This document shows, one piece after another, positions 38,140 to 57,387 of a DNA stretch of 64,000 nucleotides. Origin of the DNA: a virus (Duplodnaviria > Heunggongvirae > Uroviricota > Caudoviricetes); the IMG/VR virus record IMGVR_UViG_3300037512_000782, positions 124,732 to 188,731 of that record. One strand, given 5' to 3'. Below the pieces are notes generated by a model. The model worked only from the letters and a program-made list of their open reading frames with translations, was not told the DNA's origin and searched no databases. The position numbers and the translations under genes were made by a program. How positions within the stretch are numbered: position 1 is the first letter of the stretch; the number at the start of each line of letters is the position of its first letter.

Positions 38140-38168
38140 TTGACGATCGAAAAAATAATTGCTAAACT
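38140..38168 (+). promoter_or_regulatory. Sigma70-like promoter of the tRNA array leader
   Basis: TTGACG-17 nt-TAAACT with an AT-rich UP element. Confidence 0.7.
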
Positions 38169-38191
38169 TGAATGCAAAGAGGTTAAAAACC

Positions 38192-38311
38192 ATGCAAATG
38201 ATGCTACATAACATTAAACTCGTTGAACGCAATAGTCAGTTGGCACCCAAGGCCGACCGCCTCTTTGCAGCATATACGGGTTGCGGTTATGGGCAAAAGT
38301 TGCACCGATGA
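38192..38311 (+). CDS. Putative leader peptide (39 aa) of the tRNA array attenuator
   Basis: AGAGG SD; MQMMLHNIKLVERNSQLAPKADRLFAAYTGCGYGQKLHR*; lies between promoter and terminator. Confidence 0.55.
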   Translation: MQMMLHNIKLVERNSQLAPKADRLFAAYTGCGYGQKLHR

Positions 38312-38340
38312 TTTCCTTTGAAGGTTGATGTTTGATGGGA

Positions 38341-38372
38341 ACCCGGTTGCAACAAAAGCAACTGGGTTTTTT
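38341..38372 (+). terminator. Attenuator-type intrinsic terminator upstream of the first tRNA
   Basis: ACCCGGTTGC-AACAAAA-GCAACTGGGT plus TTTTT. Confidence 0.8.
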
Positions 38373-38390
38373 CATTCACCAATAACATTT

Positions 38391-38464
38391 GGGTCTGTGG
38401 CAGAATGGGATTGCACCTCCCTTGCAAGGAGTGTTCTTACGGGTTCGAATCCCGTCAGTATCCA
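38391..38464 (+). tRNA. tRNA-Ala(UGC)
   Basis: Loop CT-TGC-AA; G3:U70; 1-nt bulge in acceptor stem. Confidence 0.85.
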
Positions 38465-38520
38465 GTAAACATAAGTCCGAGAGACTTATGAGCAGTTTGA
38501 CAGTTCGGATGATTTTGTAT

Positions 38521-38593
38521 GGGGCATTAGCGCAATGGTAGAGCGCTTCCATGGCATGGAAGAGGTTTATCGGTTCGAGTCCGATATGCTCCA
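38521..38593 (+). tRNA. tRNA-Ala(GGC)
   Basis: CTTCC-AT-GGC-AT-GGAAG; G3:U70. Confidence 0.9.
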
Positions 38594-38601
38594 GTAATTA
38601 A

Positions 38602-38673
38602 GGGTCATTAGTTCAATGGTAGAATTCTGGCTCCGCACGTCAGCGATATCGGTTCGAGTCCGATATTGATCCA
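38602..38673 (+). tRNA. tRNA-Ala(CGC)
   Basis: CTGGC-TC-CGC-AC-GTCAG; G3:U70; C33; acceptor bulge. Confidence 0.8.
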
Positions 38674-38706
38674 TTATAAAATGGATAGTCTGCACTATCG
38701 AACCCA

Positions 38707-38715
38707 TGATAAACT
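38707..38715 (+). promoter_or_regulatory. Putative late promoter TGATAAACT
   Basis: Upstream of the HNH gene. Confidence 0.55.
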
Positions 38716-38744
38716 TTGAAATAGCGTAACAATATGTGGTATGT

Positions 38745-39533
38745 ATGTTTGTTAGTGAAAAACGAATCGCGGCGAATCGACGTAATATAGAATTAGGTCG
38801 AGCAAAATCGCACGAAACTTGGCATCGAATTAAGGAACGTAACCAATCATTAGTCGAATGTACGGCGGTATGTGAACATTGTCATAAAGAATTTCACAAA
38901 ATGATTAAGCAAATCGACCTCGATAAAAATCGTTTGCCAAGATTTTGTTCACGAAGCTGTGCGAATTCGAGGGTTAGAACAACGGAGTTGAAACAACATT
39001 TACACGAGACAATGAAGAATCAAAAATATGTGGATGGCGAAAAGTCTCCCATAATACGTTATTGCAAGGGTTGTGGCTGTATTATGCCGCTGGCTGTAAA
39101 AACGCATCGACGATATTGTTCTGACGAATGCCGAATATCGTTTAAAATTCGTGAGAAGAATACTAACGCGAAATGTACTAAGCGGAAATATAAAGAAGCT
39201 TGCCGATTCATGTTTGATGTGTATGATTATCCAAATGAATTTGATTTATTACTCATTCAACAGTATGGTTGGTATAGTGCTACTAATTATGACGACAATC
39301 CGAATGGGGTATCACGCGATCACATGTATAGCGTAAGTGCTGGTTACAAGAACAATATACCAGCAACAATTATTGCGCATCCAGCAAATTGTCGGTTGCT
39401 GTTGCAATCTGATAACTTCAAAAAGTTGGATGATTGCTCAATTACGCTAGATGAATTGTACGATCGAATACGAACATGGGAACTGAAATATGGTAAATAC
39501 CAGCCTAGTACATGGAATGTGAATAAACACTAA
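38745..39533 (+). CDS. Putative HNH-type homing endonuclease with Zn-finger repeats
   Basis: CEHC, FCSRSC, CKGC, YCSDEC; SRDHMYSV...HPANCRLL...DNFKK; AT-rich relative to flanks; inserted in the tRNA array. Confidence 0.7.
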   Translation: MFVSEKRIAANRRNIELGRAKSHETWHRIKERNQSLVECTAVCEHCHKEFHKMIKQIDLDKNRLPRFCSRSCANSRVRTTELKQHLHETMKNQKYVDGEKSPIIRYCKGCGCIMPLAVKTHRRYCSDECRISFKIREKNTNAKCTKRKYKEACRFMFDVYDYPNEFDLLLIQQYGWYSATNYDDNPNGVSRDHMYSVSAGYKNNIPATIIAHPANCRLLLQSDNFKKLDDCSITLDELYDRIRTWELKYGKYQPSTWNVNKH

Positions 39534-39543: not shown

Positions 39544-39620
39544 GGTCACTTAGCTCAGCTGGATTTTAGAGCGCCGTGCTACGAACGCGGAGGTCGGGAG
39601 TTCGATCCTCTCAGTGACTA
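39544..39620 (+). tRNA. tRNA-Arg(ACG)
   Basis: CCGTG-CT-ACG-AA-CGCGG. Confidence 0.9.
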
Positions 39621-39629
39621 CTAAAATAT

Positions 39630-39702
39630 GGTCCCGTCGACCAGCGGTTTAAGTCATCGCACTTTCTATGCGATTACCCCGGTTCGAATCCGGGCGGGAC
39701 TA
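39630..39702 (+). tRNA. tRNA-Glu(UUC)
   Basis: TCGCA-CT-TTC-TA-TGCGA; atypical U37. Confidence 0.85.
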
Positions 39703-39711
39703 CTAATTTAT

Positions 39712-39785
39712 CCTCATCTGGCGCAATTGGTTAGCGCTTCGCTCTGATACGGCGGAGGTTCTTGGTTCGAGTCCAAGGGTGAGGA
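39712..39785 (+). tRNA. tRNA-Ile(GAU)
   Basis: TCGCT-CT-GAT-AC-GGCGG. Confidence 0.85.
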
Positions 39786-39792
39786 CTAACTT

Positions 39793-39878
39793 TGATTGAT
39801 CGTGGGTCTCAATGTTCCCGACGGCGATGGAGCAGTCCATGTGGAAGGTTAATCTCCTTCGTGATTCTTGATCAGTCA
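39793..39878 (+). ncRNA. Unassigned four-way-junction RNA
   Basis: Terminal stem TGATTGATC/GATCAGTCA enclosing three hairpins; lies between two tRNAs. Confidence 0.4.
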
Positions 39879-39882
39879 TTAT

Positions 39883-39955
39883 GCCGCTGTAGCTCAGTAG
39901 GTAGAGCGGAAGCCTGAAGAGCTTCGCGTCGGAGGTTCGATTCCTCCCGGCGGCA
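39883..39955 (+). tRNA. tRNA-Phe(GAA)
   Basis: GAAGC-CT-GAA-GA-GCTTC. Confidence 0.95.
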
Positions 39956-39968
39956 CTAATAAATTTAT

Positions 39969-40171
39969 GGGTACTCTGCTGCAGAAATGCCGAGTAGGAG
40001 AAAGTCGACAGAAAGCTCTGGGATAGTGATCTAACCAGTCACGACATTCCTTGAACAAGTATAGAGACCTAACGAAAGCTTAAATGGAGATGCAGATGTG
40101 AGCTGGTAACTCACATGGTCTGGATGTCTAAATCCGACGACCTAGCTCTGGTTCGAATCCAGGAGGGCCCA
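39969..40171 (+). ncRNA. 203-nt RNA with tRNA-like acceptor stem and T-arm
   Basis: GGGTACT/AGGGCCC-A-CTA acceptor, TCTGG-TTCGAAT-CCAGG T-arm, large structured insert. Confidence 0.6.
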
Positions 40172-40175
40172 CTAT

Positions 40176-40248
40176 ACCTCACTGGCTCAATTGGTAGAGC
40201 AAGGCACTCTTAATGCTTGGGTTGAAGGTTCAAGTCCTTCGTGGGGTA
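40176..40248 (+). tRNA. tRNA-Lys(CUU)
   Basis: AGGCA-CT-CTT-AA-TGCTT. Confidence 0.9.
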
Positions 40249-40342
40249 CTAAACGCACTAATCCGTCTGCGATAGAAATGACGGAGAGACCTTCGGCAGT
40301 TAACACGGGAAAGTCCCTTCGGGGTCAAGCTGCCATCTTTAT

Positions 40343-40415
40343 TGCGGTATAGCTCAGTTGGTAGAGCAGCGGAATCATAATCCGTGTGTCGAAGGTTCAA
40401 GTCCTTCTACCGCAA
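40343..40415 (+). tRNA. tRNA-Met(CAU), probably elongator
   Basis: GCGGA-AT-CAT-AA-TCCGT. Confidence 0.85.
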
Positions 40416-40422
40416 CTATTAT

Positions 40423-40496
40423 GGGGCCATCGTCTAGTTGGCTAGGACACCAGCTTGTCACGCTGGAAATCACGGGTTCGAACCCCGTTGGTCCCG
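40423..40496 (+). tRNA. tRNA-Asp(GUC)
   Basis: CCAGC-TT-GTC-AC-GCTGG; G73. Confidence 0.95.
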
Positions 40497-40499
40497 TAT

Positions 40500-40575
40500 A
40501 CTCGATTCGCCTAGCTGGTCGATGGCATCTGCCTTACAAGCAGACACAACCTTGGTTCGAATCCAAGATCGAGTA
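40500..40575 (+). tRNA. tRNA-Val(UAC)
   Basis: TCTGC-CT-TAC-AA-GCAGA. Confidence 0.9.
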
Positions 40576-40579
40576 CTAT

Positions 40580-40651
40580 AGGGATTTAGGACAGTGGCTA
40601 GTCTAGCGCTCTCCAAAAGCGTCTACGGGAGTTCGAATCTCTCAGTCCCTG
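40580..40651 (+). tRNA. tRNA-Trp(CCA)
   Basis: GCGCT-CT-CCA-AA-AGCGT; G73. Confidence 0.9.
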
Positions 40652-40667
40652 CTAACAAATTATTTAT

Positions 40668-40751
40668 GGGTGATCTCCGATGATGGTGAATCGGGGCTGG
40701 CTGTAACCCAGCTGCCTTACGGCTCAGGGCGTTCGAATCGCTCATCACCCA
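40668..40751 (+). tRNA. tRNA-Tyr(GUA)
   Basis: GCTGG-CT-GTA-AC-CCAGC; long variable arm. Confidence 0.9.
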
Positions 40752-40759
40752 CTACTTAT

Positions 40760-40831
40760 TCTATCCTAGCTCAATGGTAGAGCGTTCGGCTGTTAACCGA
40801 ATGGTTCCTGGTTCGAGTCCAGGGGATAGAG
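40760..40831 (+). tRNA. tRNA-Asn(GUU)
   Basis: TTCGG-CT-GTT-AA-CCGAA; G73. Confidence 0.95.
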
Positions 40832-40841
40832 CTAATCATTT

Positions 40842-40914
40842 CAGCGTGTAGCTCAGCTGGTAGAGCGCACCGTTCGGGGCGGTGAGGTCGGTGGATCGTT
40901 CCCACTTACGCTGA
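40842..40914 (+). tRNA. tRNA-Pro(CGG)
   Basis: CACCG-TT-CGG-GG-CGGTG; atypical T-loop. Confidence 0.85.
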
Positions 40915-40919
40915 CTATT

Positions 40920-40992
40920 GCCTATGTAGCTCAGTTGGTAGAGCAACGGTTTAGTAATCCGTAGGTCGGCAGTTCGACCCTGTCCGTAGGCG
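40920..40992 (+). tRNA. tRNA-Thr(AGU)
   Basis: ACGGT-TT-AGT-AA-TCCGT; G1-C72, C2-G71. Confidence 0.8.
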
Positions 40993-40999
40993 CTACTAT

Positions 41000-41072
41000 T
41001 CCGACATAGCTCAGTTGGTAGAGCAGATCATTCGTAATGATCAGGTCGCTCGTTCGAGTCGAGCTGTCGGAG
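41000..41072 (+). tRNA. tRNA-Thr(CGU)
   Basis: GATCA-TT-CGT-AA-TGATC. Confidence 0.9.
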
Positions 41073-41076
41073 CTAT

Positions 41077-41159
41077 GGAAGTGTATCCTAACTGGTAAGG
41101 AACTACCTTGGAAAGGTAGCGTGGGAAACTGCTTGAAGGTTCGAGCCCTTCCACTTCCG
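41077..41159 (+). tRNA. tRNA-Ser(GGA)
   Basis: CTACC-TT-GGA-AA-GGTAG; long variable arm; G73. Confidence 0.9.
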
Positions 41160-41163
41160 CTAT

Positions 41164-41253
41164 GGAAGCGTAGACCTAACTGGTAAGGCCGCTGATTCGA
41201 AATCAGTCGTGTGGAGGATACTTCGCGTGTGGGTTCGAGTCCTACCGCTTCCG
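41164..41253 (+). tRNA. tRNA-Ser(CGA)
   Basis: GCTGA-TT-CGA-AA-TCAGT; long variable arm. Confidence 0.9.
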
Positions 41254-41270
41254 CTAATAAAGTTTGTATG

Positions 41271-41354
41271 GAGAGTTGGCAGAGTCTGGCTTATTGCATC
41301 ACGGTGCTAACGTGACGGTCTTAGGATCCACTGGTTCGAATCCAGTACTCTCTT
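41271..41354 (+). tRNA. tRNA-Ser(GCU)
   Basis: TCACG-GT-GCT-AA-CGTGA; G32. Confidence 0.85.
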
Positions 41355-41362
41355 CTAATCAT

Positions 41363-41436
41363 GGTGCCCGTAGCTCAATTGGTAGAGCCCTGGTATGTGG
41401 AACCAGCTGTTGCAAGTTCAAGCCTTGTCGGACGCC
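41363..41436 (+). tRNA. tRNA-His(GUG)
   Basis: CTGGT-AT-GTG-GA-ACCAG; G-1/C73. Confidence 0.9.
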
Positions 41437-41443
41437 CTATTAT

Positions 41444-41516
41444 TGCCGATTAGCCAAGTTGGTAAGGCAGATGCCTCTGAAGCATCGTATCGTTCGTTCG
41501 AGTCGAGCATCGGCAA
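41444..41516 (+). tRNA. tRNA-Gln(CUG)
   Basis: GATGC-CT-CTG-AA-GCATC. Confidence 0.9.
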
Positions 41517-41530
41517 CTAAAATTTTATAT

Positions 41531-41604
41531 GCGCCCATGGTGTAATTGGCTAACACGACACCTTGCCATGGTGTAGACTGCCGAATCGTGCTCGGCTGGG
41601 CGCT
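41531..41604 (+). tRNA. tRNA-Gly(GCC)
   Basis: ACACC-TT-GCC-AT-GGTGT; U73; atypical T-loop. Confidence 0.85.
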
Positions 41605-41608
41605 CTAT

Positions 41609-41691
41609 CTCGATGTGGGGGAATTGGTAGACCCGCCAGCTTGAGGGGCTGGTTCGTAACAGAGTGCATGGTTCAAGTCCAGCCATCGAGA
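41609..41691 (+). tRNA. tRNA-Leu(GAG)
   Basis: CCAGC-TT-GAG-GG-GCTGG; long variable arm. Confidence 0.9.
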
Positions 41692-41704
41692 CTAATCATC
41701 AATC

Positions 41705-41790
41705 CGGCGATTGCTGGAACTGGAAAGACAATTCGGACTTAAAATCCGAAGCACGTAACGTGCGTATGGGTTCGAGTCCCATATCGCCGA
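41705..41790 (+). tRNA. tRNA-Leu(UAA)
   Basis: TCGGA-CT-TAA-AA-TCCGA; long variable arm. Confidence 0.9.
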
Positions 41791-41863
41791 TAGGAGATAA
41801 CTAACATGAAGAAACTTAAACGATTATAAAGGTCGCAACTGCCTATCAGTTGCAATTCCCTAT

Positions 41864-41936
41864 GCGGGATTGGCGCAGTTGGTAGCGCAATGGACTTTTA
41901 ATCTATGGGTCGTCAGTTCGAACCTGACATCCCGCA
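41864..41936 (+). tRNA. tRNA-Lys(UUU)
   Basis: ATGGA-CT-TTT-AA-TCTAT. Confidence 0.9.
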
Positions 41937-41940
41937 CTAT

Positions 41941-42011
41941 GCACCTATATTGTAGTGGTAACAAGGTGGTCTTCCAAACCGCAATCGCCAGTTCGAATCT
42001 GACTAGGTGCT
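41941..42011 (+). tRNA. tRNA-Gly(UCC)
   Basis: GTGGT-CT-TCC-AA-ACCGC; U73. Confidence 0.9.
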
Positions 42012-42020
42012 CTAACTTAT

Positions 42021-42104
42021 CGGCATGTGGAGTAATTGGTAGCCTCGCCAGAATCAGAATCTGGTGGTCGAAAGATCGTGAGGGTTCGATTCCCTCTTTG
42101 CCGA
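42021..42104 (+). tRNA. tRNA-Leu(CAG)
   Basis: CCAGA-AT-CAG-AA-TCTGG; long variable arm. Confidence 0.85.
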
Positions 42105-42108
42105 CTAT

Positions 42109-42182
42109 CGCCCGGTGACGGAACTGGCATACGTTTCAGATTCAAAACCTGACTTTTGCGGGTTCGACTCCCGCCTGGGCGA
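42109..42182 (+). tRNA. tRNA-Leu(CAA) with short variable loop
   Basis: TCAGA-TT-CAA-AA-CCTGA; Leu-type D-arm; only 5 nt in the variable region. Confidence 0.75.
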
Positions 42183-42208
42183 CTATCTTTTCTAACAAAG
42201 GAACTAAC

Positions 42209-42547
42209 ATGATAACCGTTTCACAGATCAACGAACTTCGCCAGCAGACACAAGTGAGCATGCTTCTCTGCAAGCAAGCTCTTGAGGCTACTGACGGTGA
42301 CATGAACCGAGCCAAGGAATGGCTCCGCAGCAAGGGTAGCGAGGTCGCCGGAGACGGCGGATCGTTCGGATACTCTCTGTTCGAGGACGCTACCGAAAAA
42401 CTACAAGGCGTTACCGAAGGTGGCAAGGGTTTCCAATGGACTGATGGCGTAGTATCTATCGACATCCGTGGTTTCGACGGATCGTCTCCGAGAACTCTGT
42501 GGGGAAGCGACAGACGCATGCTGGTCTGCAGACCAGTCAAGGCGTAA
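42209..42547 (+). CDS. EF-Ts N-terminal (UBA-like) domain protein
   Basis: ITVSQINELRQQTQVSMLLCKQALEATDGDMNRAKEWLRSKG matches the EF-Ts N-terminal consensus; the rest is unrelated; AAGGA SD. Confidence 0.8.
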   Translation: MITVSQINELRQQTQVSMLLCKQALEATDGDMNRAKEWLRSKGSEVAGDGGSFGYSLFEDATEKLQGVTEGGKGFQWTDGVVSIDIRGFDGSSPRTLWGSDRRMLVCRPVKA

Positions 42548-42552: not shown

Positions 42553-42625
42553 GCCCACGAAGCTCAACTGGATGAGCTGCGGATTTCTAATCCGCTGGCT
42601 GCGAGTTCGACTCTCGTCGTGGGTA
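42553..42625 (+). tRNA. tRNA-Arg(UCU)
   Basis: GCGGA-TT-TCT-AA-TCCGC. Confidence 0.9.
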
Positions 42626-42629
42626 CTAC

Positions 42630-42657
42630 TTGCAATCAAAACACTATTTGCTATATT
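42630..42657 (+). promoter_or_regulatory. Sigma70-like promoter inside the array
   Basis: TTGCAA-16 nt-TATATT. Confidence 0.6.
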
Positions 42658-42668
42658 TCGTACTGTAT

Positions 42669-42739
42669 TGAGCTATGGTGTAACGGTAGCACACGGGATT
42701 TTGATTCCCATAGTCTAGGTTCAAATCCTGGTAGCTCAA
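42669..42739 (+). tRNA. tRNA-Gln(UUG)
   Basis: CGGGA-TT-TTG-AT-TCCCA. Confidence 0.9.
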
Positions 42740-42743
42740 CTAT

Positions 42744-42823
42744 CCGGTTGTGGTGGAATTGGTAGACACGTCAGACTTAGGATCTGGTGCTTATGCGTGT
42801 GGGTTCGAGTCCCTCTAGCCGGA
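42744..42823 (+). tRNA. tRNA-Leu(UAG)
   Basis: TCAGA-CT-TAG-GA-TCTGG. Confidence 0.9.
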
Positions 42824-42839
42824 CTATTAAGAGGTTTCT

Positions 42840-43277
42840 ATGAGACGTTTGTTCATTATCCGCAAGGACTTGAAGTTATCTGCTGGCAAGCTTGCCGCGA
42901 TGGTTGCGCACTGCGCCGAAGGCTACTGGACGCGCCTTATCGCTAGGAATGCCGACTTCGACGGAGACGAGCATTACACAGTCCGATTCCGTTTGGATAA
43001 AGCGGACATGGAAGAATACATCAAGGGCATCTTCAAGAAGACTATCTGCGAGGCGAAGAACCTCAACCATCTTATGAAGGTCAAGGAAGTTGCCGACGGC
43101 CTTGGTCTTGTACAAGGCGAAGATTACGACTTCATCGACGACGCATGCTTGACGGAGCTGACTCCGGAAGCTGTCGACGAGAAGGGCAATGGTTATTGCC
43201 GAGTCGGCGTGTGGTTCAAGCCGCTATCTGACGAGATCAGCCACACGCTGTCCAAGAAGTATCAACTTTATCATTAA
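42840..43277 (+). CDS. pth2: Peptidyl-tRNA hydrolase, Pth2 family
   Basis: FIIRKDLKLSAGKLAAMVAHCA, KKTICEAKN, FIDDACLTE, GVWFKPL..SKKYQLY. Confidence 0.85.
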   Translation: MRRLFIIRKDLKLSAGKLAAMVAHCAEGYWTRLIARNADFDGDEHYTVRFRLDKADMEEYIKGIFKKTICEAKNLNHLMKVKEVADGLGLVQGEDYDFIDDACLTELTPEAVDEKGNGYCRVGVWFKPLSDEISHTLSKKYQLYH

Positions 43278-43282: not shown

Positions 43283-43356
43283 GCTGACGTGCCGAAGTGG
43301 GAACGGGTGAGTCCGCAAAACTTTACATTGAGTGTGTTCGATTCACACCGTCAGCT
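43283..43356 (+). tRNA. tRNA-Cys(GCA)
   Basis: GAGT-CC-GCA-AA-ACTT; U73; C33. Confidence 0.8.
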
Positions 43357-43366
43357 CTAACTACTT

Positions 43367-44080
43367 ATGAAATTTGGATTGATCGGAAAGAACATTGGAT
43401 ACAGCAAGTCCAAGGAACTGTTTGACCAATGGAACCTTGACTACCGAGTTTACGACGTTGACAGTGTCGAACAAGGTCTTGAGCTGGTTATTGACGACAA
43501 GCTCGACGGATTCAATGTGACAAAGCCGTTCAAGAAGGACATCATCAAGTATCTTGACGGATTGATGCCCAATGCAGAACGTATTCAGTCAGTGAACTGC
43601 GTGAAGGTGTTTGCCGATACGTTGATCGGCGAGAACTTCGATTGCGATGCATTTCGTAACTCCTTGTGTCATTACATCAGCAATCACGACGCTTGGGAAT
43701 TCGACTTCCCTCACCGAATGGCGATTCTTGGAAATGGCGGCGTGACGCCGTCGATATTGGCTGCGTTACACGAAGTTGTGGACGGCGTTTCATCCAGTCA
43801 CGAGATTACGGTATTCGCTAGGACTCCGAAGGACGGTGAAACACCTATTGCCGAGTTCGATGCGAAACGGTTCGACTTGATAGTCAATACGGTTCCGTTC
43901 GAGGCTGGCATCGACATCGACTTCAACAACAAGGGCAAGTTCATCTATTATGACTTGAACTATGCCGATCGCCGATTGGTCGAGAAGGCTGAACTTAACA
44001 AGCATTGTTCTTGGTCGCTCGACGGCATGGATATGCTGGAACGGCAAGCTGAAATGGCCAAGAACTGGTGGCTGGCATAA
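43367..44080 (+). CDS. aroE: Shikimate dehydrogenase
   Basis: FGLIGKNIGYSKS, GFNVTKPFK (catalytic Lys), SVNC, GENFD, ILGNGG, IVNTVP, YDLNY, DGMDMLERQA. Confidence 0.85.
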   Translation: MKFGLIGKNIGYSKSKELFDQWNLDYRVYDVDSVEQGLELVIDDKLDGFNVTKPFKKDIIKYLDGLMPNAERIQSVNCVKVFADTLIGENFDCDAFRNSLCHYISNHDAWEFDFPHRMAILGNGGVTPSILAALHEVVDGVSSSHEITVFARTPKDGETPIAEFDAKRFDLIVNTVPFEAGIDIDFNNKGKFIYYDLNYADRRLVEKAELNKHCSWSLDGMDMLERQAEMAKNWWLA

Positions 44081-44196: not shown

Positions 44197-44269
44197 TGTT
44201 CCATAGCTCAGTTGGTAGAGCCCGCGACTGTTAATCGTGTTGTCCCTGGTTCGAGTCCAGGTGGAACAG
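44197..44269 (+). tRNA. tRNA-Asn(GUU), second copy
   Basis: CGCGA-CT-GTT-AA-TCGTG; G73. Confidence 0.95.
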
Positions 44270-44630: not shown

Positions 44631-44706
44631 CGCGGGTGGGTGGAACGGAATACCATTCGAGGCTCATAACCTCTGAGATACCGGAGTTCGACTCCCGGAC
44701 CCGCTA
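44631..44706 (+). tRNA. tRNA-Met(CAU), initiator-like
   Basis: C1-U72 mismatch; loop CT-CAT-AA; anticodon stem GAGG/CCTC rather than GGG/CCC. Confidence 0.75.
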
Positions 44707-44850: not shown

Positions 44851-44860
44851 TAAGTTTGAA

Positions 44861-45014: not shown

Positions 45015-45018
45015 AAAA

Positions 45019-51827: not shown

Positions 51828-51902
51828 CGTCCGTAGCTCAATGGACTAGAGCGTCGCTCTCCGAAGGCGAAGGTTTTGCCAGTTCGACCCTGGCCGGACG
51901 CA
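51827..51902 (+). tRNA. tRNA-Arg(CCG)
   Basis: TCGCT-CT-CCG-AA-GGCGA. Confidence 0.9.
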
Positions 51903-51905
51903 TTT

Positions 51906-51978
51906 GTCCACGTCGTCAAGCTGGAATGGCCTCGCTCTCCTAAAGCGATGTTCGCTGGTTCGACTCCAGCCGTGGATA
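51906..51978 (+). tRNA. tRNA-Arg(CCU)
   Basis: TCGCT-CT-CCT-AA-AGCGA. Confidence 0.85.
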
Positions 51979-52007
51979 CTACAAACAAACCAAAAGGACA
52001 CAAACCA

Positions 52008-52619
52008 ATGATTACCGTAAGAAACCAAGTTTTTGAAACAAATTCAAGTAGCTGCCATTCGGTCACGCTGGGTACTGAACTCAGACCGATCGAAGAATTC
52101 CCGCTGCCTGACAAGGATGGCGTCATCCAGATCGAACTGCCGATTGCCAAGGAATGGTATGACGGATTCAAGACATTCAATGACTTCTTGATCCTCGCGC
52201 TCATGTATATCAACGACGGCGAAAAGCTGACTGGTTGGAACTGGTCGCCGAGCGGCGACGACCAAGTCGACTTGCTTCGCTGGATCAACATCGTCTACTC
52301 TATGCGCGGTCTTCCGCACGTCAACAGTATCAAGTTGAGCTGGACTGGCTTTGTCGAATTCAAGGAAGACGGTTCTGGAAGTAGCTTCGGCGAAAACGAC
52401 CAGACATGCTATGCGATCAGCTCGTTGCAGAGTGGTTATGGTCTTGAAGAATTCTTGCTTTCGATGGGGCAAGAAATCGGCCCAGACACCAATCTGCCTG
52501 GTCTCGAAAAGATCATGGAACCCATCAAGGAAGAAGATTACAAGGCGAACGTGGCGATGTACAACGCGGCTGTCTCGGTCGTGTACAATTCCACTAGCAA
52601 CATCTGGAGTGATAGCTAA
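52008..52619 (+). CDS. FETNSSS-motif hypothetical protein 2
   Basis: MITVRNQVFETNSSSCH; AAGGA SD. Confidence 0.7.
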   Translation: MITVRNQVFETNSSSCHSVTLGTELRPIEEFPLPDKDGVIQIELPIAKEWYDGFKTFNDFLILALMYINDGEKLTGWNWSPSGDDQVDLLRWINIVYSMRGLPHVNSIKLSWTGFVEFKEDGSGSSFGENDQTCYAISSLQSGYGLEEFLLSMGQEIGPDTNLPGLEKIMEPIKEEDYKANVAMYNAAVSVVYNSTSNIWSDS

Positions 52620-53089
52620 TGCGTACTATACGAATGAACGTATTCGAAACCAATTCGAGCTCGTGCCACGTCATGACCGTCATGAACGAGGAACAGCTCG
52701 CACAGTTCGACAAGAAGTGGAACGAACGGCGTAATGTCTATCCGTGCCGCCGTCTCCGTCGAGCCGATTCCGACAGCAACGAAGCTGGTCTGTACGAAAT
52801 CATCGACGACGACACCTTCTTTGCCGAAATGTATCCGAAGTTCGAACAAGTTGCAAAGACCATCGACAAGGATACTGCACGGAAGATTATGGACATGCTG
52901 TTCATGGAAAAGCCTCATGAAGACATCTTGAAGGAATTTCCGACGGTCAACCCGGAAGAACTTCAGATGTACGACTGGACTTACGTTTGCGGCAGCAGTG
53001 AAACCGTGAACTTCTGCGAATCGTATGTCGAAGGCCAAATTTCTGCTGGCAACGGAAAGTTTGCCGTACTCATTTCGATGGCTTGCTAA
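52619..53089 (+). CDS. FETNSSS-motif hypothetical protein 3
   Basis: MRTIRMNVFETNSSSCH. Confidence 0.7.
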   Translation: MRTIRMNVFETNSSSCHVMTVMNEEQLAQFDKKWNERRNVYPCRRLRRADSDSNEAGLYEIIDDDTFFAEMYPKFEQVAKTIDKDTARKIMDMLFMEKPHEDILKEFPTVNPEELQMYDWTYVCGSSETVNFCESYVEGQISAGNGKFAVLISMAC

Positions 53090-53111
53090 ATAAACTCATT
53101 TTTGCTATATT
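53083..53111 (+). promoter_or_regulatory. Sigma70-like promoter
   Basis: TTGCTA-17 nt-TATATT. Confidence 0.65.
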
Positions 53112-53137
53112 TAGCAAGCACTCAAATCGGAGTTACT

Positions 53138-53971
53138 ATGAAATACTTGTTACTATGTGGAGTCCATGGCGACGAACAGAATGCCGTTCTCTCCACTATC
53201 AAGACGTTCAACAGCATCAAGCAAGAGAATCATGGTTCAATCCAGATCGACTGCTTGGTTGTGAATACGCCAGCGTTACGTGCATGTCAGCGTGAAGTTC
53301 CTGAGAAGCCAAATGCTACGATGGACATGAACCGCATGTACGGAACCGAACAAGATTTCAAGCCTGATGAAGCAGTTTCGACTATCAAGCAGAAGATTAT
53401 GGAAAGCGATGTCGTCATCGATATCCACAACTCTTATGCTTGCGCCAACAGCATCTTGATTTCCAACAGCGACTACGCGGAAGACTATGTGAAGTTTGCC
53501 ACCGAAATGGACATCTGCTACATCGTCACCGAGTCCGCTACGAATACCGCCAAGAAGTTTGCGATTGAGGCTGGCAAGGTCGGCATCACCGTTGAACTCG
53601 GCGGTATGGGTTACGGCCCGGAATTCAAGACTGTCATCGACAAGGATATGCAGTTCATTCACCGACTGATCATGTCTCTCGAAGTGTACGCCCAGCGTGG
53701 CGGAAAGTTCGAGAAGAAGGCTCCGCTGGTTCAGAACTGTATCGTCCGTTCGATCTATGCCCACACTGAGGGCATCATGGACTACACGAAGGAACTCGGT
53801 GATACGTTCCGTGCCGGAGAAGTGATCGGCTGTATCTATTCTCCGTCTGGCGTCATCGTCGAGAAGGTCGTGGCTCCGTTCGACGGATGGGTTGCCGATG
53901 CTATGCCCAAGCTTTGGGCAGAACCTGGCGACGTGATCTGCGACTTGCAGCCACGCGCTGGACGCATCTGA
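53138..53971 (+). CDS. M14-family succinylglutamate desuccinylase/aspartoacylase-like hydrolase
   Basis: GVHGDE, DMNR, VIDIH, TVELGG; C-terminal biotinyl-like APFDG domain. Confidence 0.8.
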   Translation: MKYLLLCGVHGDEQNAVLSTIKTFNSIKQENHGSIQIDCLVVNTPALRACQREVPEKPNATMDMNRMYGTEQDFKPDEAVSTIKQKIMESDVVIDIHNSYACANSILISNSDYAEDYVKFATEMDICYIVTESATNTAKKFAIEAGKVGITVELGGMGYGPEFKTVIDKDMQFIHRLIMSLEVYAQRGGKFEKKAPLVQNCIVRSIYAHTEGIMDYTKELGDTFRAGEVIGCIYSPSGVIVEKVVAPFDGWVADAMPKLWAEPGDVICDLQPRAGRI

Positions 53972-54843: not shown

Positions 54844-54916
54844 GCCGGATTAGCTCAGTTGGTAGAGCAGACGCCTTGTAAGCGTCAGGTCAAGTGTCCG
54901 AGTCACTTATCCGGCT
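54844..54916 (+). tRNA. tRNA-Thr(UGU)
   Basis: GACGC-CT-TGT-AA-GCGTC; T-loop TCCGAGT. Confidence 0.9.
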
Positions 54917-55279
54917 TATCGCGGTTAGCGCCATACCGCAAAATTGGTGCGAATCATAGCTGGCCTGGGGGCGGATCTGACTAATCTGCCGGACAAGTAG
55001 GTAGTGTGGGCTTAACAGTGCATTACTGAAAAACAAGTTCGCCTATGGGGGACTGCCGAGCTTAGTCGAGCGAGGCATATATCATGGGGAAAACGGTTGG
55101 CGAGTGACCGGAGGAGCCATTGCGGTGGCGAGTCTGGACGGACTGCGAGAGGCGAGTTCCCTTTGATGTCGGTACTGCTAGGGAGCGAGCTCGATTACAC
55201 TGGTACAGCCATTTGGTGATGTGGGCCGAGGCACGGATCCTTGTGGTAAAGAAAAGATAAATTCCTCCTCGGCATTTAT

Positions 55280-55352
55280 GGCTCCTTCGTCTAGTGGCCC
55301 AGGACCCCAGATTCTCAATCTGGTAACAGCGATTCGAATTCGCTAGGAGCTA
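55280..55352 (+). tRNA. tRNA-Glu(CUC)
   Basis: CCAGA-TT-CTC-AA-TCTGG. Confidence 0.9.
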
Positions 55353-55377
55353 TTACACAAATCGAAAAGGTTGAATC

Positions 55378-55560
55378 ATGAAAGAGAAGAGAGAGTTTGT
55401 CGAAGAGACATTGGAGCAGAAGCAAGCTCGCTGGGAGAAGCAGAGCAAGTCTGCGAAGTCGTTTGCGAAGCAGTGCGGCGTTAACTTGAAGAAGATTGCC
55501 AAGGAGCGCGACCGTATCGCTGCAGAGAAGCGTAACCGCGTTCGTACAAAGTTCTTTTAG
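55378..55560 (+). CDS. Small basic hypothetical protein
   Basis: AAGG SD; 60 aa; lies between two tRNAs. Confidence 0.55.
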   Translation: MKEKREFVEETLEQKQARWEKQSKSAKSFAKQCGVNLKKIAKERDRIAAEKRNRVRTKFF

Positions 55561-55566
55561 AACAAA

Positions 55567-55649
55567 GGAAGACTATCCTAATTGGTAAGGAATCTGACTT
55601 GAAATCAGACGCGGGAAACTGCTTGGGGGTTCGAGTCCCTCGTCTTCCG
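55567..55649 (+). tRNA. tRNA-Ser(UGA)
   Basis: TCTGA-CT-TGA-AA-TCAGA; long variable arm; G73. Confidence 0.9.
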
Positions 55650-55700
55650 TAAAGAATCATCCGATAGTCAATCACCATTTCTTAATTGTCGTAATCATAT

Positions 55701-55732
55701 AAGAAGCCACCGAGAAATCGGTGGCTTTCTTT
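55701..55732 (+). terminator. Terminator at the end of the tRNA island
   Basis: AGCCACCGA-GAAA-TCGGTGGCT plus T-rich tail. Confidence 0.75.
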
Positions 55733-55733
55733 G

Positions 55734-55762
55734 TTGACACCGGAAATGATATTTACTATATT
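55734..55762 (+). promoter_or_regulatory. Sigma70-like promoter
   Basis: TTGACA-17 nt-TATATT. Confidence 0.7.
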
Positions 55763-55849
55763 GTAATTAACATCCTCACGGATGTTTCCGTCGAAAGACC
55801 CACGTTATTATTTGTCAGGATGGCCACCGAGAGATCGGTGGTCATTCTG

Positions 55850-55878
55850 TTTACATCCAAACTGTATTTTGCTATATT
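55850..55878 (+). promoter_or_regulatory. Sigma70-like promoter
   Basis: TTTACA-17 nt-TATATT. Confidence 0.6.
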
Positions 55879-55902
55879 TGTCTCAACAACAAAGGAATAC
55901 CT

Positions 55903-57387
55903 ATGCAGCATACAGAAGGTACTTACATTCTCCCATACATCGACGGCGACAACAAATTTACTCCAGTGGTAAATATGAGGTCGTCCATCTTCCTTGCTGG
56001 CCCTTGCCCTCGTGAAAACTACGGTGAAGACTGGCGTTTCGAGGCGGCTACAATTCTCCGTCGTCTCGGCTTCAAGGGAAACATCATTTCTCCGACAAAC
56101 GATCACTACATGGAAATGCGCAAGAACTACGGTCTTGAAATGCTCAGTCAGCAGACCGAATGGGAACGCCGCATGATGCATACTTGCTCTGCGCTTGTGT
56201 TCTGGGTTCCGCGTTCCGAGAAGTGGCCAGCCTATACGACCAACGTAGAATACGGCGAATGGTACAAGAAGGAAGGCGTGTTCTTCGGTTATCCGGAAGG
56301 CGCTATCAAGAACGAATATCTTGAACTGAAGCTTCAAGAACAAAATAAGACGGCATACCATACGCTTGAGGACATTCTCAAGGCCGCCATGGAACACATC
56401 TACCGTCCAGCCGACAGCTATTTCACTGCAGACACCCACTTCGGACAAGAGCGCACTCTGCAGCTTTCTCGCCGTCCGTTCGTCGACGTCGAGGAAATGG
56501 ACTTGACGATGGTCTCCAACTGGAACAAGCGCGTCCCAGAATCTGGAATCGTGTATCACGCTGGCGACTTGATCGACCCGGCGCAAATCGACAAGTTGCC
56601 GACGGTACTCAGCAACCTTAACTTTGCCGAACTGCACTGGGTTCTCGGTAATTATGACCGCAAGATCAAGGAACAGATTCTTGACGCAATTAGTAGCGTT
56701 CGTCTGGAATACCGCCAGATATATGTGTATGACGTTGACAATCCGTGCTATGTCAACCTCAAGAAGGAAGACGGCAAGGAAGTTAAGTTCCGTGTCATTC
56801 ACGAGCCAGCCGACTTCGAATATCACGACGACACCGACGTCACGTATCTGTTCGGCCACATCCACGGTCGTTCCTTCGCTAAGCGCAACGGTTTCGACAT
56901 CGCTTGCGACTACAGCAACTATACGCCGCTTTCCAGCGAACAGGTGCTCTGGTTCAAGAATGCCATGCAGTACTGGGACAAGAACGTGTACTGCGACCGC
57001 GTGAACCGTGTTGCCGACACTGTCGAATACACGCTTGAGGCTACCGATCGTTCGTATCACTGGCCGAAGCAAGCTATCAGCAGCTTCATGCGTCTGCCGG
57101 AAGAACAGCGCCTTGTCACGTTCGGCAAGCAAGAGACGACCTATCCGACTGTGGAGATTGACTTGGCAACCGCCGTCGGCACTGTAAAGGAAATCACGCC
57201 GGACAACAAGATGGTAATCAAAATCAATAAGGATTATCCGCAAGGCCGCGTGATCGCCAAGATGCTTGAGGATAAGCTCCCAGTCAAGTATTACCTTGCT
57301 GGGGCCGCAGAAGGTTCCATGATTATCGAGCGGGATATCAAAGATCCTAGCGCGACGATCACCGAAGCTCAGCTCAAGTGCGAATAA
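55903..57387 (+). CDS. Nucleoside 2-deoxyribosyltransferase-like domain fused to a calcineurin-like metallophosphoesterase
   Basis: IFLAGP..WR..QTEWE..VFWVPR..TTNVEYG (NDT-like); ADTHFG, HAGDL, VLGNYD, LFGHIH (MPE). Confidence 0.8.
   Translation: MQHTEGTYILPYIDGDNKFTPVVNMRSSIFLAGPCPRENYGEDWRFEAATILRRLGFKGNIISPTNDHYMEMRKNYGLEMLSQQTEWERRMMHTCSALVFWVPRSEKWPAYTTNVEYGEWYKKEGVFFGYPEGAIKNEYLELKLQEQNKTAYHTLEDILKAAMEHIYRPADSYFTADTHFGQERTLQLSRRPFVDVEEMDLTMVSNWNKRVPESGIVYHAGDLIDPAQIDKLPTVLSNLNFAELHWVLGNYDRKIKEQILDAISSVRLEYRQIYVYDVDNPCYVNLKKEDGKEVKFRVIHEPADFEYHDDTDVTYLFGHIHGRSFAKRNGFDIACDYSNYTPLSSEQVLWFKNAMQYWDKNVYCDRVNRVADTVEYTLEATDRSYHWPKQAISSFMRLPEEQRLVTFGKQETTYPTVEIDLATAVGTVKEITPDNKMVIKINKDYPQGRVIAKMLEDKLPVKYYLAGAAEGSMIIERDIKDPSATITEAQLKCE

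What the first reader, a model, noticed from the sequence alone, without database searches (positions are those of the whole stretch)
38140..57387. Integrated tRNA-replacement / translation-rescue island
Seen: about 19 kb, all on the + strand, combining 42 tRNAs, five Y-like RNAs with Ro60, Pth2, an EF-Ts N-domain protein, a HAD phosphatase, a metallophosphoesterase fusion, AroE and many unassigned structured RNAs. Known: bacterial Rsr/Y RNA loci are linked to RNA damage and often to RtcB; Pth recycles peptidyl-tRNA; T4 Pnkp/Rnl1 repair PrrC-cut tRNA. Inference: one module that senses, replaces, recycles and heals damaged tRNA during infection. No RNA ligase or CCA-adding enzyme is visible in this window.
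Basis: partly seen in the sequence, partly recalled or inferred. Interest (0 to 1): 0.8.

Follow-up and report, generated by a model that had tools for sequence, protein, structure and literature searches.

The report
Jumbo-phage tRNA region with add-ons
This is the tRNA gene region of a 348-kb phage: a full spare set of 42 tRNAs plus a few translation and RNA-care genes (Pth2, an EF-Ts fragment, Ro60 with five Y-like RNAs) mixed with unrelated cargo, a rich example of a toolkit already described for giant phages, not one new integrated machine.

Summary
All 42 tRNAs of the 348-kb phage genome lie at window 38391-55649 on the + strand. Among them are Pth2, an EF-Ts N-domain protein, an AroE-family enzyme, Ro60 (TROVE+vWA) preceded by five RNAs sharing one 22-nt module, a small HAD-like protein and a deoxyribosyltransferase-like/metallophosphoesterase fusion.

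The reading as one sense-replace-recycle-heal module is only partly supported.
- The closest relative (major capsid protein, MCP, 87% identical) keeps the tRNA order, EF-Ts_N and Pth2. It lacks Ro60, AroE, HAD, HTH and AstE-like genes, and has NadE, radical SAM, rhomboid, a methylase and RtcB there instead.
- Ro60 was absent from the flanks of 80 phage Pth2 loci. In four other Ro60-bearing genomes it lies 41-110 kb from Pth2.
- Three island genes belong to an unrelated 13-member FETNSSSxH family.
- The genome does encode RtcB and a CCA-adding enzyme, 145 kb and 37 kb from the array. I found no TilS or Rnl2; the Rnl1 search was uninformative.
- No tRNA gene encodes CCA.

The toolkit idea is already published (Iyer et al. 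2021, PMC7824862), and this scan noted similar islands in at least five other genomes. Verdict: new member of a known kind. Function is inferred; no expression data could be obtained.

The parts
38116..38390 (+). Leader upstream of the first tRNA (promoter-like site, short ORF, hairpin)
   Evidence: About 80% identical to the matching place in relative G003. Fold z-scores of -5.5 and -5.3.
38391..38673 (+). Three tRNA-Ala genes (UGC, GGC, CGC)
   Evidence: ARAGORN. G003 has the same three at the head of its array.
38736..39533 (+). Zn-finger/HNH-like ORF inserted between tRNA genes
   Evidence: phrog_23051 at 1.7e-34, with a weak HNH phrog and a weak zf-FCS hit. G003 has tRNA-Ala(CGC) and tRNA-Arg(ACG) 5 nt apart at this place, so this ORF is an insertion.
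39544..42183 (+). Core array of 26 tRNA genes
   Evidence: ARAGORN and Rfam. Gene order is largely kept in G003.
40058..40178 (+). tRNA-shaped element missed by tRNA finders, with CUA in the anticodon-like loop
   Evidence: T-loop motif. Conserved in G003 with a compensatory change in the anticodon-like stem.
42209..42547 (+). EF-Ts N-terminal (UBA-like) domain protein, 112 aa, with a C-terminal half of unknown fold
   Evidence: 66% identical homologue at the same place in G003 and 55% in G012.
42553..42824 (+). tRNA-Arg(UCU), tRNA-Gln(UUG), tRNA-Leu(UAG)
42840..43277 (+). Peptidyl-tRNA hydrolase Pth2
   Evidence: PF01981 38.7 bits. G16, K17, H24, D101 and T105 are invariant across six phage homologues. 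78% identical in G003.
43283..43357 (+). tRNA-Cys
43367..44080 (+). AroE-family (shikimate/quinate dehydrogenase-like) enzyme
   Evidence: Present in G001, G002 and G012, absent from G003. It neighbours Pth2 in 8 IMG/VR loci.
44197..44707 (+). tRNA-Asn and an initiator-like tRNA-Met (C1/U72 mismatch), with a structured spacer between them
   Evidence: The spacer at 44271-44420 has fold z -3.9.
44775..45024 (+). Y0: long, atypical Y-like RNA (5' module at 44784, T-loop at 44991); overlaps a doubtful ORF at 44730-45026
   Evidence: The ORF has no family hit.
45661..45778 (+). Conserved non-coding element of unknown function
   Evidence: 84% identical over 118 nt to G003 48518-48634.
45846..45962 (+). 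Y1: Y-like RNA (module, T-arm, two GC hairpins)
   Evidence: (fold z -3.5).
45963..46102 (+). Y2: Y-like RNA (module, T-arm, hairpin, D-like arm)
46146..46275 (+). Y3: Y-like RNA
   Evidence: Full-length Rfam YrlA match at 36.5 bits, below the gathering score of 69. Module shared with the other elements.
46308..46452 (+). Y4: Y-like RNA
   Evidence: Rfam YrlA core match at 37.7 bits, below the gathering score. Module shared with the other elements.
46660..48081 (+). Ro60 (TROVE + vWA)
   Evidence: 60% identical to the crAss001 TROVE protein.
48146..48481 (+). Winged-helix HTH_39 protein
   Evidence: PF14090 33.7 bits. No homologue found in the syntenic 60 kb of G003.
48485..48895 (+). Small HAD-like protein (DFDST motif)
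   Evidence: Homologues only in G013 and G014, far from their Ro60 and Pth2.
49055..50126 (+). tRNA-Pro(UGG), a 103-aa ORF of unknown function, tRNA-Met(CAU)
50350..51234 (+). 294-aa ORF of unknown function
   Evidence: No significant family hit.
51237..53089 (+). Three FETNSSSxH-family paralogues (51237-51827, 52008-52619, 52619-53089), interrupted by tRNA-Arg(CCG) and tRNA-Arg(CCU) at 51827-51979
   Evidence: There are 13 copies in the genome, 10 of them at 319-328 kb. Homologues flank RtcB in G003.
53102..53971 (+). AstE/AspA-like zinc deacylase
   Evidence: PF24827 66.8 bits. No homologue in 11 other jumbo-phage genomes.
53996..54331 (+). 111-aa ORF of unknown function, conserved in G003
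   Evidence: 54% identical to its G003 homologue.
54844..55649 (+). tRNA-Thr(UGU), tRNA-Glu(CUC), a 60-aa ORF, tRNA-Ser(UGA)
55703..55728 (+). Strong terminator-like hairpin closing the tRNA region
   Evidence: 11-bp stem followed by a T run.
55903..57387 (+). Nucleoside deoxyribosyltransferase-like + metallophosphoesterase fusion. It is its own cassette, lying between terminator-like hairpins at 55703-55728 and 57394-57415.
   Evidence: 54% identical homologue in G003, about 10 kb beyond its last tRNA.

Best explanation
This is the tRNA gene region of a T4-type jumbo phage. Its host is probably a member of the Bacteroidota.

The conserved core is a co-oriented array of tRNA genes that lack an encoded CCA end. 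The array covers all 20 amino acids with 39 different anticodons. I infer that it can read every sense codon, provided U34 wobbles four ways for Val and Pro and one CAU tRNA is lysidine-modified by the host. The transcripts would be cut out by host RNase P and 3' nucleases. They must then receive CCA from the phage's own CCA-adding enzyme, encoded 37 kb downstream, or from the host's.

The most likely role is to make phage translation independent of a host tRNA pool that is mismatched, shut off, or cleaved by anticodon nucleases.

Two small helpers travel with the array in the nearest relatives. Pth2 would release tRNA from stalled peptidyl-tRNA. The EF-Ts N-domain protein is presumably an EF-Tu-binding module. 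RtcB, the ligase that re-seals cut tRNA, belongs to this neighbourhood in three relatives but has moved 145 kb away here.

Ro60 and its five Y-like RNAs are a lineage-specific gain from the crAss-like/Bacteroidota gene pool. They probably form RNPs that handle misfolded or damaged RNA.

The other genes are independent cargo: the AroE-like, HAD-like, AstE-like, HTH and HNH-like genes, three FETNSSSxH genes and the NDT-metallophosphoesterase cassette. They sit here because the tRNA region is a plastic zone that tolerates insertions, not because they form one machine.

Shown: the gene content, the synteny and its limits, and the absence of encoded CCA. Inferred: every function.
For: - All 42 tRNAs lie in one + strand region. 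The phage is T4-type by its Gp23 capsid protein.
- G003 (MCP 87% identical) has largely the same tRNA order and homologues of EF-Ts_N (66%), Pth2 (78%), the FETNSSSxH genes, g53996 and NDT-MPE.
- G003 has no Ro60, no AroE-like gene, no HAD-like gene and no AstE-like gene. It carries radical SAM, rhomboid, NadE, M15 peptidase, a C5 methylase and RtcB among its tRNAs.
- The HNH-like ORF at 38736-39533 splits two tRNAs that are adjacent in G003.
- RtcB lies within or 0.9 kb from the tRNA region in G001, G002 and G003, but at G000 16911-17945.
- Of 80 phage Pth2 loci, 41 have at least one tRNA and 26 have at least five within the flanks. None has Ro60, 5 have RtcB, 8 have AroE-like and 2 have EF-Ts_N.
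- Across 12 Pth2-bearing genomes: RtcB in 9, CCA-adding enzyme in 8 (all 8 also have RtcB), Ro60 in 5, AroE-like in 4, EF-Ts_N in 3, HAD-like in 3, AstE-like in 1.
- No tRNA gene encodes CCA, and the CCA-adding enzyme is present.
- Ro60 is 60% identical to the crAss001 protein, and a similar RNA module with a T-arm lies beside that gene.
- Terminator-like hairpins separate the NDT-MPE gene from the tRNA region.
- The same repertoire is described for jumbo phages in PMC7824862, section 3.4.9.
Against: - Some linkage is not random. The order EF-Ts_N, Pth2, AroE recurs in G012. Pth2 sits next to RtcB in two lineages. YrlA-like RNAs lie in the tRNA arrays of G002 and G003. A looser functional neighbourhood therefore does exist.
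- Only one near-complete close relative (G003) was available. Many of the 80 loci are copies of a few lineages, so the counts are not independent.
- Four island ORFs and most of the 5.5 kb of non-coding DNA remain unassigned and could be RNA-related.
- No expression or processing data could be obtained.
- The host is not identified.
Confidence: 0.7

Rival explanations
1. One reading: the whole 19 kb is one integrated, co-selected anti-defence module. Ro60/Y RNAs sense damaged tRNA, the array replaces it, Pth2 recycles it, and the HAD and metallophosphoesterase proteins heal the ends for a ligase encoded elsewhere.
For: - Everything is co-oriented, and translation or RNA-linked genes are interleaved with tRNAs at spacings of 6-25 nt.
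- RtcB and a CCA-adding enzyme exist in the genome.
- RtcB lies in the tRNA region of three relatives.
- Half of the phage Pth2 loci are near tRNAs.
- The published jumbo-phage model links these families.
Against: - The components vary independently between relatives.
- Ro60 is never near Pth2 in any other genome examined.
- RtcB is 145 kb away here, and its neighbours are genes of unknown function plus a sigma factor.
- No Rnl2-type ligase that would need healed ends was found. The Rnl1 search also found nothing, but its control was silent.
- Three genes belong to an unrelated family.
- The NDT-MPE gene is a separate, terminator-bounded cassette.
- The surrounding genome is also mostly + strand, so co-orientation is not specific to the island.
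Confidence: 0.12
2. Pure supply model: the array exists only to match phage codon usage and raise translation capacity late in infection. It has no link to host tRNA attack, and Pth2, EF-Ts_N and Ro60 are general translation and RNA housekeeping helpers.
For: - The set is complete, 39 anticodons for all 20 amino acids, and not a few nuclease-targeted species.
- Its order is conserved in G003.
- Codon compensation is the classical explanation for phage tRNAs (background as stated in PMC10264068).
Against: - RtcB, a ligase for cleaved RNA, is kept in 9 of 12 related genomes and often lies inside the tRNA region.
- Recent experiments show that phage tRNAs rescue infection from tRNA-cleaving defences (PMC10264068, PMC11464382 and PMC11555353, listed).
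- The host, and so its codon usage, is unknown, so this model was not tested here.
Confidence: 0.15

Closest known systems
RNA-repair and tRNA repertoire of jumbo phages (Iyer, Anantharaman, Krishnan, Burroughs, Aravind 2021, Viruses 13:63, PMC7824862, section 3.4.9)
   Same: Many tRNAs, an RtcB ligase, a CCA-adding enzyme, PTH2 for ribosome rescue, a ROT/TROVE protein with a tRNA-like RNA partner, and HAD and calcineurin-like phosphoesterases are all listed there as a counter-measure to host RNases.
   Different: - The paper describes a genome-wide repertoire, not one island.
- Here RtcB and the CCA-adding enzyme lie outside the tRNA region.
- No Rnl2 ligase or polynucleotide kinase partner was found.
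- The EF-Ts N-domain protein is not mentioned in the paper (0 occurrences), and I know of no mention there of an AroE-like gene.
Bacterial rsr-yrlBA-rtcBA type loci and YrlA RNAs (Chen et al. 2014, PMC4201824; Rfam RF02553)
   Same: A Ro60 gene is directly preceded by several co-oriented RNAs that have a T-arm, a closing hairpin and a D-arm in the permuted YrlA order. Phage examples are known, and CcrColossus shows three such hits upstream of its Ro60.
   Different: - Scores are about half of Rfam's gathering score.
- The 5' motif is GUGAYAG..., not GNCGAAN0-1G.
- There are five copies.
- RtcB is not adjacent.
- The locus is embedded in a tRNA array.
T4 Pnkp/Rnl1 repair of PrrC-cut tRNA-Lys
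   Same: The concept of a phage countering an anticodon nuclease.
   Different: No Rnl2 was found, and the Rnl1 search was uninformative because its control was silent. The ligase present is RtcB, which by established biochemistry joins 3'-phosphate or 2',3'-cyclic phosphate ends to 5'-OH without separate end healing.
Phage tRNAs that evade or neutralise tRNA-targeting defences (van den Berg et al. 2023, PMC10264068; Burman et al. 2024, PMC11464382; Azam et al. 2024, PMC11555353)
   Same: A phage-encoded tRNA supply as a replacement for cleaved host tRNAs.
   Different: Those are tested cases with one or a few tRNAs in coliphages. Here a full set is present and nothing has been tested.
tRNA regions and hyperplastic zones of T4-type phages
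   Same: tRNA genes clustered in one variable region, interspersed with small ORFs and homing-endonuclease-like genes. Cargo differs between close relatives.
   Different: The scale is much larger (42 tRNAs, 19 kb). I did not test for PeSL-type signals in this region.

Membership tests
Jumbo-phage tRNA/RNA-repair repertoire (Iyer et al. 2021) | Large self-encoded tRNA set | tested here: met
   42 tRNAs covering 20 amino acids.
Jumbo-phage tRNA/RNA-repair repertoire (Iyer et al. 2021) | RNA ligase (RtcB, Rnl1 or Rnl2) in the genome | tested here: met
   RtcB at G000 16911-17945, 150 + 47 bits. No Rnl2. No Rnl1 hit, but the control was silent.
Jumbo-phage tRNA/RNA-repair repertoire (Iyer et al. 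2021) | CCA-adding enzyme, PTH2, and TROVE protein with a tRNA-like RNA | tested here: met
   PolyA_pol 113.9 bits, PTH2 38.7 bits, TROVE 42.8 bits plus five Y-like RNAs.
Jumbo-phage tRNA/RNA-repair repertoire (Iyer et al. 2021) | End-healing kinase/phosphatase acting on RNA ends | tested here: inconclusive
   A HAD-like protein and a metallophosphoesterase exist, but there is no kinase partner and no sequence match to a known RNA-end phosphatase. Their activity is not testable with these tools.
One co-inherited gene module (operon-like island) | Components kept together across related genomes | tested here: not met
   Only the tRNA order, EF-Ts_N and Pth2 are kept in G003. Ro60 is in 0 of 80 Pth2 flanks. 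See the presence counts over 12 genomes.
YrlA (Rfam RF02553) | Score at or above the gathering threshold of 69 bits | tested here: not met
   36.5 and 37.7 bits. The model also gives hits of this size in Ro60-less genomes and at tRNA-tRNA junctions.
YrlA (Rfam RF02553) | T-arm, closed hairpin and D-arm inside a long closing stem, encoded next to Ro60 on the same strand | tested here: met
   The alignments to the model show the T, AS and D elements for Y3 and Y4. All five elements lie within 1.9 kb upstream of Ro60.
rsr-yrlBA-rtcBA operon type | RtcB/RtcA adjacent to Ro60 | tested here: not met
   RtcB is about 154 kb from Ro60. RtcA was not searched for.
Pth2 (PF01981) | Family score over the cut-off and conserved core residues | tested here: met
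   38.7 bits against a cut-off of 23. Invariant G16, K17, H24, D101 and T105 in six homologues. The NCBIfam equivalog cut-offs are not reached.
Elongation factor Ts | N-terminal UBA-like domain plus the core/dimerisation domains | tested here: not met
   Only residues 2-48 match EF-Ts. Pfam EF-Ts_N scores 29.4, below the 33.2 cut-off. The remaining 64 residues match nothing. It is a domain relative, not an EF-Ts.
Shikimate dehydrogenase AroE | Equivalog score; catalytic Lys/Asp and NADP Gly loop | tested here: inconclusive
   Shikimate_dh_N 47.8 bits (cut-off 27), but TIGR00507 scores 77 against 200. In the alignment to PDB 3don the PFK Lys, the NxD motif and ILGNGG are kept. The substrate is unknown.
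T4 Pnkp/Rnl1 tRNA repair | Rnl1-type ligase and Pnkp | tested here: inconclusive
   No PF09511 match, but the control genomes were silent too. Pnkp was not searched for directly.

The most novel reading that the evidence does not exclude
Y-like, tRNA-mimicking RNAs are a standing component of the tRNA arrays in this group of rumen jumbo phages, even where the phage has no Ro60 (G002, G003). If so, they would act through the host's own Ro60/Rsr or as decoys for tRNA-directed nucleases. G000 would then have captured a crAss-type Ro60 and expanded the RNAs to five diversified 'heads', making the particle independent of the host and co-expressed with its tRNAs. A second strand: the recurring EF-Ts_N, Pth2 and AroE neighbourhood reflects a real functional link. 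For example, shikimate-pathway products might feed U34 wobble modification of the single tRNA-Val and tRNA-Pro(UGG) species.
Probability: 0.12. Interest if true: 0.7.

Novelty: new member of a known kind. Interest (0 to 1): 0.35.

Why it matters
It adds a well-resolved example, from a T4-type rumen jumbo phage, to the published picture that giant phages bring their own tRNA supply and RNA-care enzymes. It also gives a comparative warning: gene proximity in a phage tRNA region is weak evidence for a shared mechanism, because close relatives swap most of the cargo.

The concrete leads worth a bench test are:
- the complete CCA-less tRNA set paired with a phage CCA-adding enzyme;
- the five-member Y-RNA family shared with crAss001;
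- Y-like RNAs in phages that lack Ro60;
- the conserved EF-Ts N-domain protein.

Tried and rejected
- Megablast of the 19 kb against 50,697 phage records matched only tRNA fragments.
- ARAGORN with introns allowed added only implausible calls with introns of 51-1048 nt.
- The sigma-70 promoter scan was barely above shuffles and is probably the wrong consensus for the likely host.
- Alternative genetic code: no sign of it. Standard-code ORFs already cover 89% of the genome.
- TilS: none found. Rnl2: none found. Rnl1: none found, with a silent control.
- RtcB and CCA-adding enzyme neighbourhoods in G000 hold no recognisable RNA-repair partners. They hold a sigma factor, HD, LemA and Band 7 proteins, and unknowns.
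- The complex prediction of the EF-Ts_N protein with Bacteroides EF-Tu returned no verdict (score 0.12, mark 0.32). It is not evidence either way.
So unknown ORFs got no language-model look-up, and no expression data could be laid on the region.
- I considered the Rfam YrlA hits alone sufficient at first. I dropped that view after the same model gave similar scores in Ro60-less genomes and at tRNA junctions. The Y-RNA call now rests on the shared module, the architecture and the position.
- Structure prediction of the HAD-like and metallophosphoesterase proteins was not run. It would not have changed the comparative verdict.

Full report
**What the sequence is.** The window is bases 124732-188731 of a single 348,092-bp virus contig. 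The contig encodes a T4-type Gp23 major capsid protein. It has about 50% G+C and no close relative among 50,697 deposited phage genomes. Earlier notes of this scan call it a cattle-rumen phage. I did not verify the source. A Bacteroidota host is suggested by two results: Ro60 is 60% identical to the crAss001 protein, and the HAD-like protein matches a Bacteroides protein of known structure.

**Observation.** ARAGORN finds 42 tRNA genes, all on the + strand between 38391 and 55649. A scan of the whole genome finds the same 42 and no others.

They comprise 39 different anticodons for all 20 amino acids. I infer that they could read every sense codon under two conditions. U34 must wobble four ways for the single tRNA-Val(UAC) and for tRNA-Pro(UGG), and one of the three CAU tRNAs must be lysidine-modified. 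The phage has no TilS.

None of the 42 genes encodes a 3' CCA. In 38 of them the gene is followed directly by TA.

- Pth2 and Ro60 are above Pfam cut-offs.
- The EF-Ts N-domain protein is slightly below Pfam's cut-off but is supported by NCBIfam and by solved EF-Ts chains.
- The AroE-family protein keeps the catalytic Lys and Asp.
- The HAD-like protein is recognisable by its DFDST motif and by PDB 2obb.
- The 494-aa fusion joins a deoxyribosyltransferase-like domain to a metallophosphoesterase.

**The Y-like RNAs.** Rfam's YrlA model gives only two hits, at half the gathering score. The same model gives similar scores in genomes without Ro60 and at junctions between tandem tRNAs. That evidence alone is therefore weak.

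Three other observations support the call.
- A 22-nt module (GTGAYAG, five bases, RGWTWCWTCG) occurs five times in the genome. All five lie on the + strand within 1.9 kb upstream of Ro60, and each is followed by a T-arm. The pattern was derived from these same five copies, so the count is descriptive.
- Y3 and Y4 show the T-arm, closed hairpin and D-arm order of YrlA.
- A similar module plus T-arm lies beside the TROVE gene of crAss001, an unrelated phage whose Ro60 is the closest homologue.

Tandem YrlA-like hits also precede Ro60 in Caulobacter phage CcrColossus. Y0 overlaps the 98-aa ORF at 44730-45026, which has no family hit and is probably not a gene.

**Rest of the genome.** RtcB is present at 16911-17945 on the - strand, and a CCA-adding enzyme is present at about 216.9 kb. 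That is 145 kb before and 37 kb after the array. Neither has recognisable RNA-repair neighbours. No Rnl2 was found. The Rnl1 search also found nothing, but its control was silent.

By established biochemistry RtcB joins 3'-phosphate or 2',3'-cyclic phosphate ends directly to 5'-OH. A separate end-healing phosphatase is therefore not required. Iyer et al. note that such enzymes track the ATP-dependent ligases. So I see no positive evidence that the HAD-like and metallophosphoesterase proteins heal tRNA.

**Comparison with relatives.** The closest near-complete genome is G003 (355 kb, capsid 87% identical). It is syntenic across the region. Its tRNA order is largely the same, beginning Ala-Ala-Ala-Arg-Glu-Ile-Phe-Lys-Met-Asp-Val. 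It has homologues of EF-Ts_N (66%), Pth2 (78%), the three FETNSSSxH genes, g53996 and the fusion protein.

The differences are as follows.
- G003 lacks Ro60, the AroE-like gene, the HAD-like gene and the AstE-like gene.
- Among its tRNAs it carries instead a radical SAM enzyme, a rhomboid protease, glutamine-dependent NAD synthase, an M15 peptidase, a C5 methylase and RtcB.
- The HNH-like ORF at 38736-39533 separates two tRNAs that are 5 nt apart in G003.

More distant T4-type jumbo phages, G001 and G002, also keep RtcB inside or 0.9 kb from their tRNA regions.

**Wider survey.** An alignment of six phage Pth2 proteins retrieved 80 loci from IMG/VR.
- 41 have at least one tRNA within the fetched flanks, and 26 have five or more.
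- 8 have the AroE-like gene next to Pth2.
- 5 have RtcB (two lineages).
- 2 have EF-Ts_N.
- None has Ro60.

Whole-genome searches cover G000 plus 11 other Pth2-bearing genomes that are at least 93% complete. The counts are RtcB in 9, CCA-adding enzyme in 8 (all 8 also have RtcB), Ro60 in 5, AroE-like in 4, EF-Ts_N in 3, HAD-like in 3 and AstE-like in 1. Where Ro60 occurs elsewhere (G004, G013, G014, G015) it is 41-110 kb from Pth2. In G004 it has no tRNA or YrlA hit within 10 kb. Many loci are copies of a few lineages, so these counts describe the data and are not statistics.

**Unrelated cargo.** The ORFs at 51237-51827, 52008-52619 and 52619-53089 begin with M.T.R..VFETNSSS.H. This is the signature of a 13-member family, ten of whose members lie at 319-328 kb of this genome. 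The fusion gene at 55903-57387 lies between strong terminator-like hairpins at 55703-55728 and 57394-57415 and is preceded by an 11/12 promoter-like site. It is followed by a C5 DNA methylase, which points to nucleotide or DNA metabolism at least as much as to RNA.

**Non-coding DNA.** 5.5 kb of the region is neither tRNA nor an ORF of 60 aa or more. Fold z-scores are modestly lower than in coding controls: 16% against 7% of windows fall below -2. Several of the strongest windows are the leader and the terminators.

Segments conserved in G003 are:
- the leader (38116-38372);
- the spacer between tRNA-Phe and tRNA-Lys, which holds a tRNA-shaped element with CUA in its anticodon-like loop;
- a 118-nt element at 45661-45778.

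'Many unassigned structured RNAs' is therefore only partly borne out.

**Interpretation.** The best-supported reading is a conserved tRNA array with a small, partly conserved set of translation helpers (EF-Ts_N, Pth2, and RtcB in relatives), sitting in a plastic zone that collects lineage-specific cargo. Ro60 with its Y-like RNAs is one such acquisition in this phage. All functions are inferred from family membership.

The idea that these families together protect phage translation from host RNases is already set out for jumbo phages by Iyer et al. 2021. Y RNAs next to phage Ro60 genes were reported by Chen et al. 2014. Phage tRNAs as an escape from tRNA-cleaving defences have been demonstrated in coliphages (papers listed). 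This scan has also noted similar islands in at least five other genomes, with the same conclusion.

**What remains open.** YrlA-like RNAs with proper closing stems lie in the tRNA arrays of G003 and G002, which have no Ro60. The order EF-Ts_N, Pth2, AroE recurs in G012. These hints of a looser functional neighbourhood keep the novel reading alive at low probability.

The complex prediction for EF-Ts_N with EF-Tu gave no verdict.

Noticed in passing
window 40058-40178 (+); G003 counterpart L036:3550-3790 (-): A tRNA-shaped element between tRNA-Phe and tRNA-Lys that ARAGORN and Rfam miss. It has a D-like arm, an anticodon-like arm whose 7-nt loop has CUA in the anticodon position, and a canonical T-arm. 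It is conserved in the relative, with an A-U to U-A swap in the stem. The genome shows no sign of TAG recoding.
   Followed up: partly
all 42 tRNA genes, window 38391-55649: No gene encodes the 3' CCA, and 38 of 42 are followed immediately by TA (mostly ...C|TA). This may be a 3'-processing signal. It makes the phage CCA-adding enzyme (G000 about 216.9 kb) a maturation factor and not only a repair enzyme.
   Followed up: partly
G003 61033-61170 (L035:14033-14170, -) and G002 310816-310929 (L041:4816-4929, -): YrlA-like RNAs (T-arm, hairpin, D-arm; the G003 one has a perfect 9-bp closing stem) sit inside the tRNA arrays of phages in which I found no Ro60 gene. Bacteroides thetaiotaomicron matched in the TROVE control search, so a host Ro60 could be the partner.
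   Followed up: partly
window 51237-53089: Three paralogues of the FETNSSSxH family lie in the tRNA region, split by two tRNA-Arg genes. The ORF listed from 51876 most likely starts at 52008. In G003 their homologues flank RtcB.
   Followed up: partly
window 42840-44080; L048, L053, L054, L056, L059, L061, L086, L013: Pth2 and the AroE-family gene are neighbours in at least eight other phage contigs, and the order EF-Ts_N, Pth2, AroE recurs in G012. I have no explanation. A link through chorismate- or prephenate-dependent U34 modification is pure speculation.
   Followed up: partly
L005 6084-6475 (crAss001, downstream of its TROVE gene): The unannotated 900-nt gap after the crAss001 Ro60 gene holds a tRNA-like RNA with a 144-nt span (Rfam tRNA 46.6 bits) and two elements with the same 5' module and T-arm as the G000 Y RNAs. 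No paper in the held library mentions crAss phages together with Y RNAs.
   Followed up: partly
window 45661-45778: A 118-nt non-coding element 84% identical to G003 48518-48634, where it lies between the g53996 homologue and tRNA-Thr. Function unknown, no Rfam match.
   Followed up: no
window 45028-45187 and 44271-44420: Two strongly structured non-coding segments (fold z about -4.8 and -3.9) with no family match.
   Followed up: no
G010 15386-15838: In a 436-kb phage the PolyA_pol (CCA-adding type) domain lies inside a 2495-aa open frame, so it may be a giant fusion protein.
   Followed up: no
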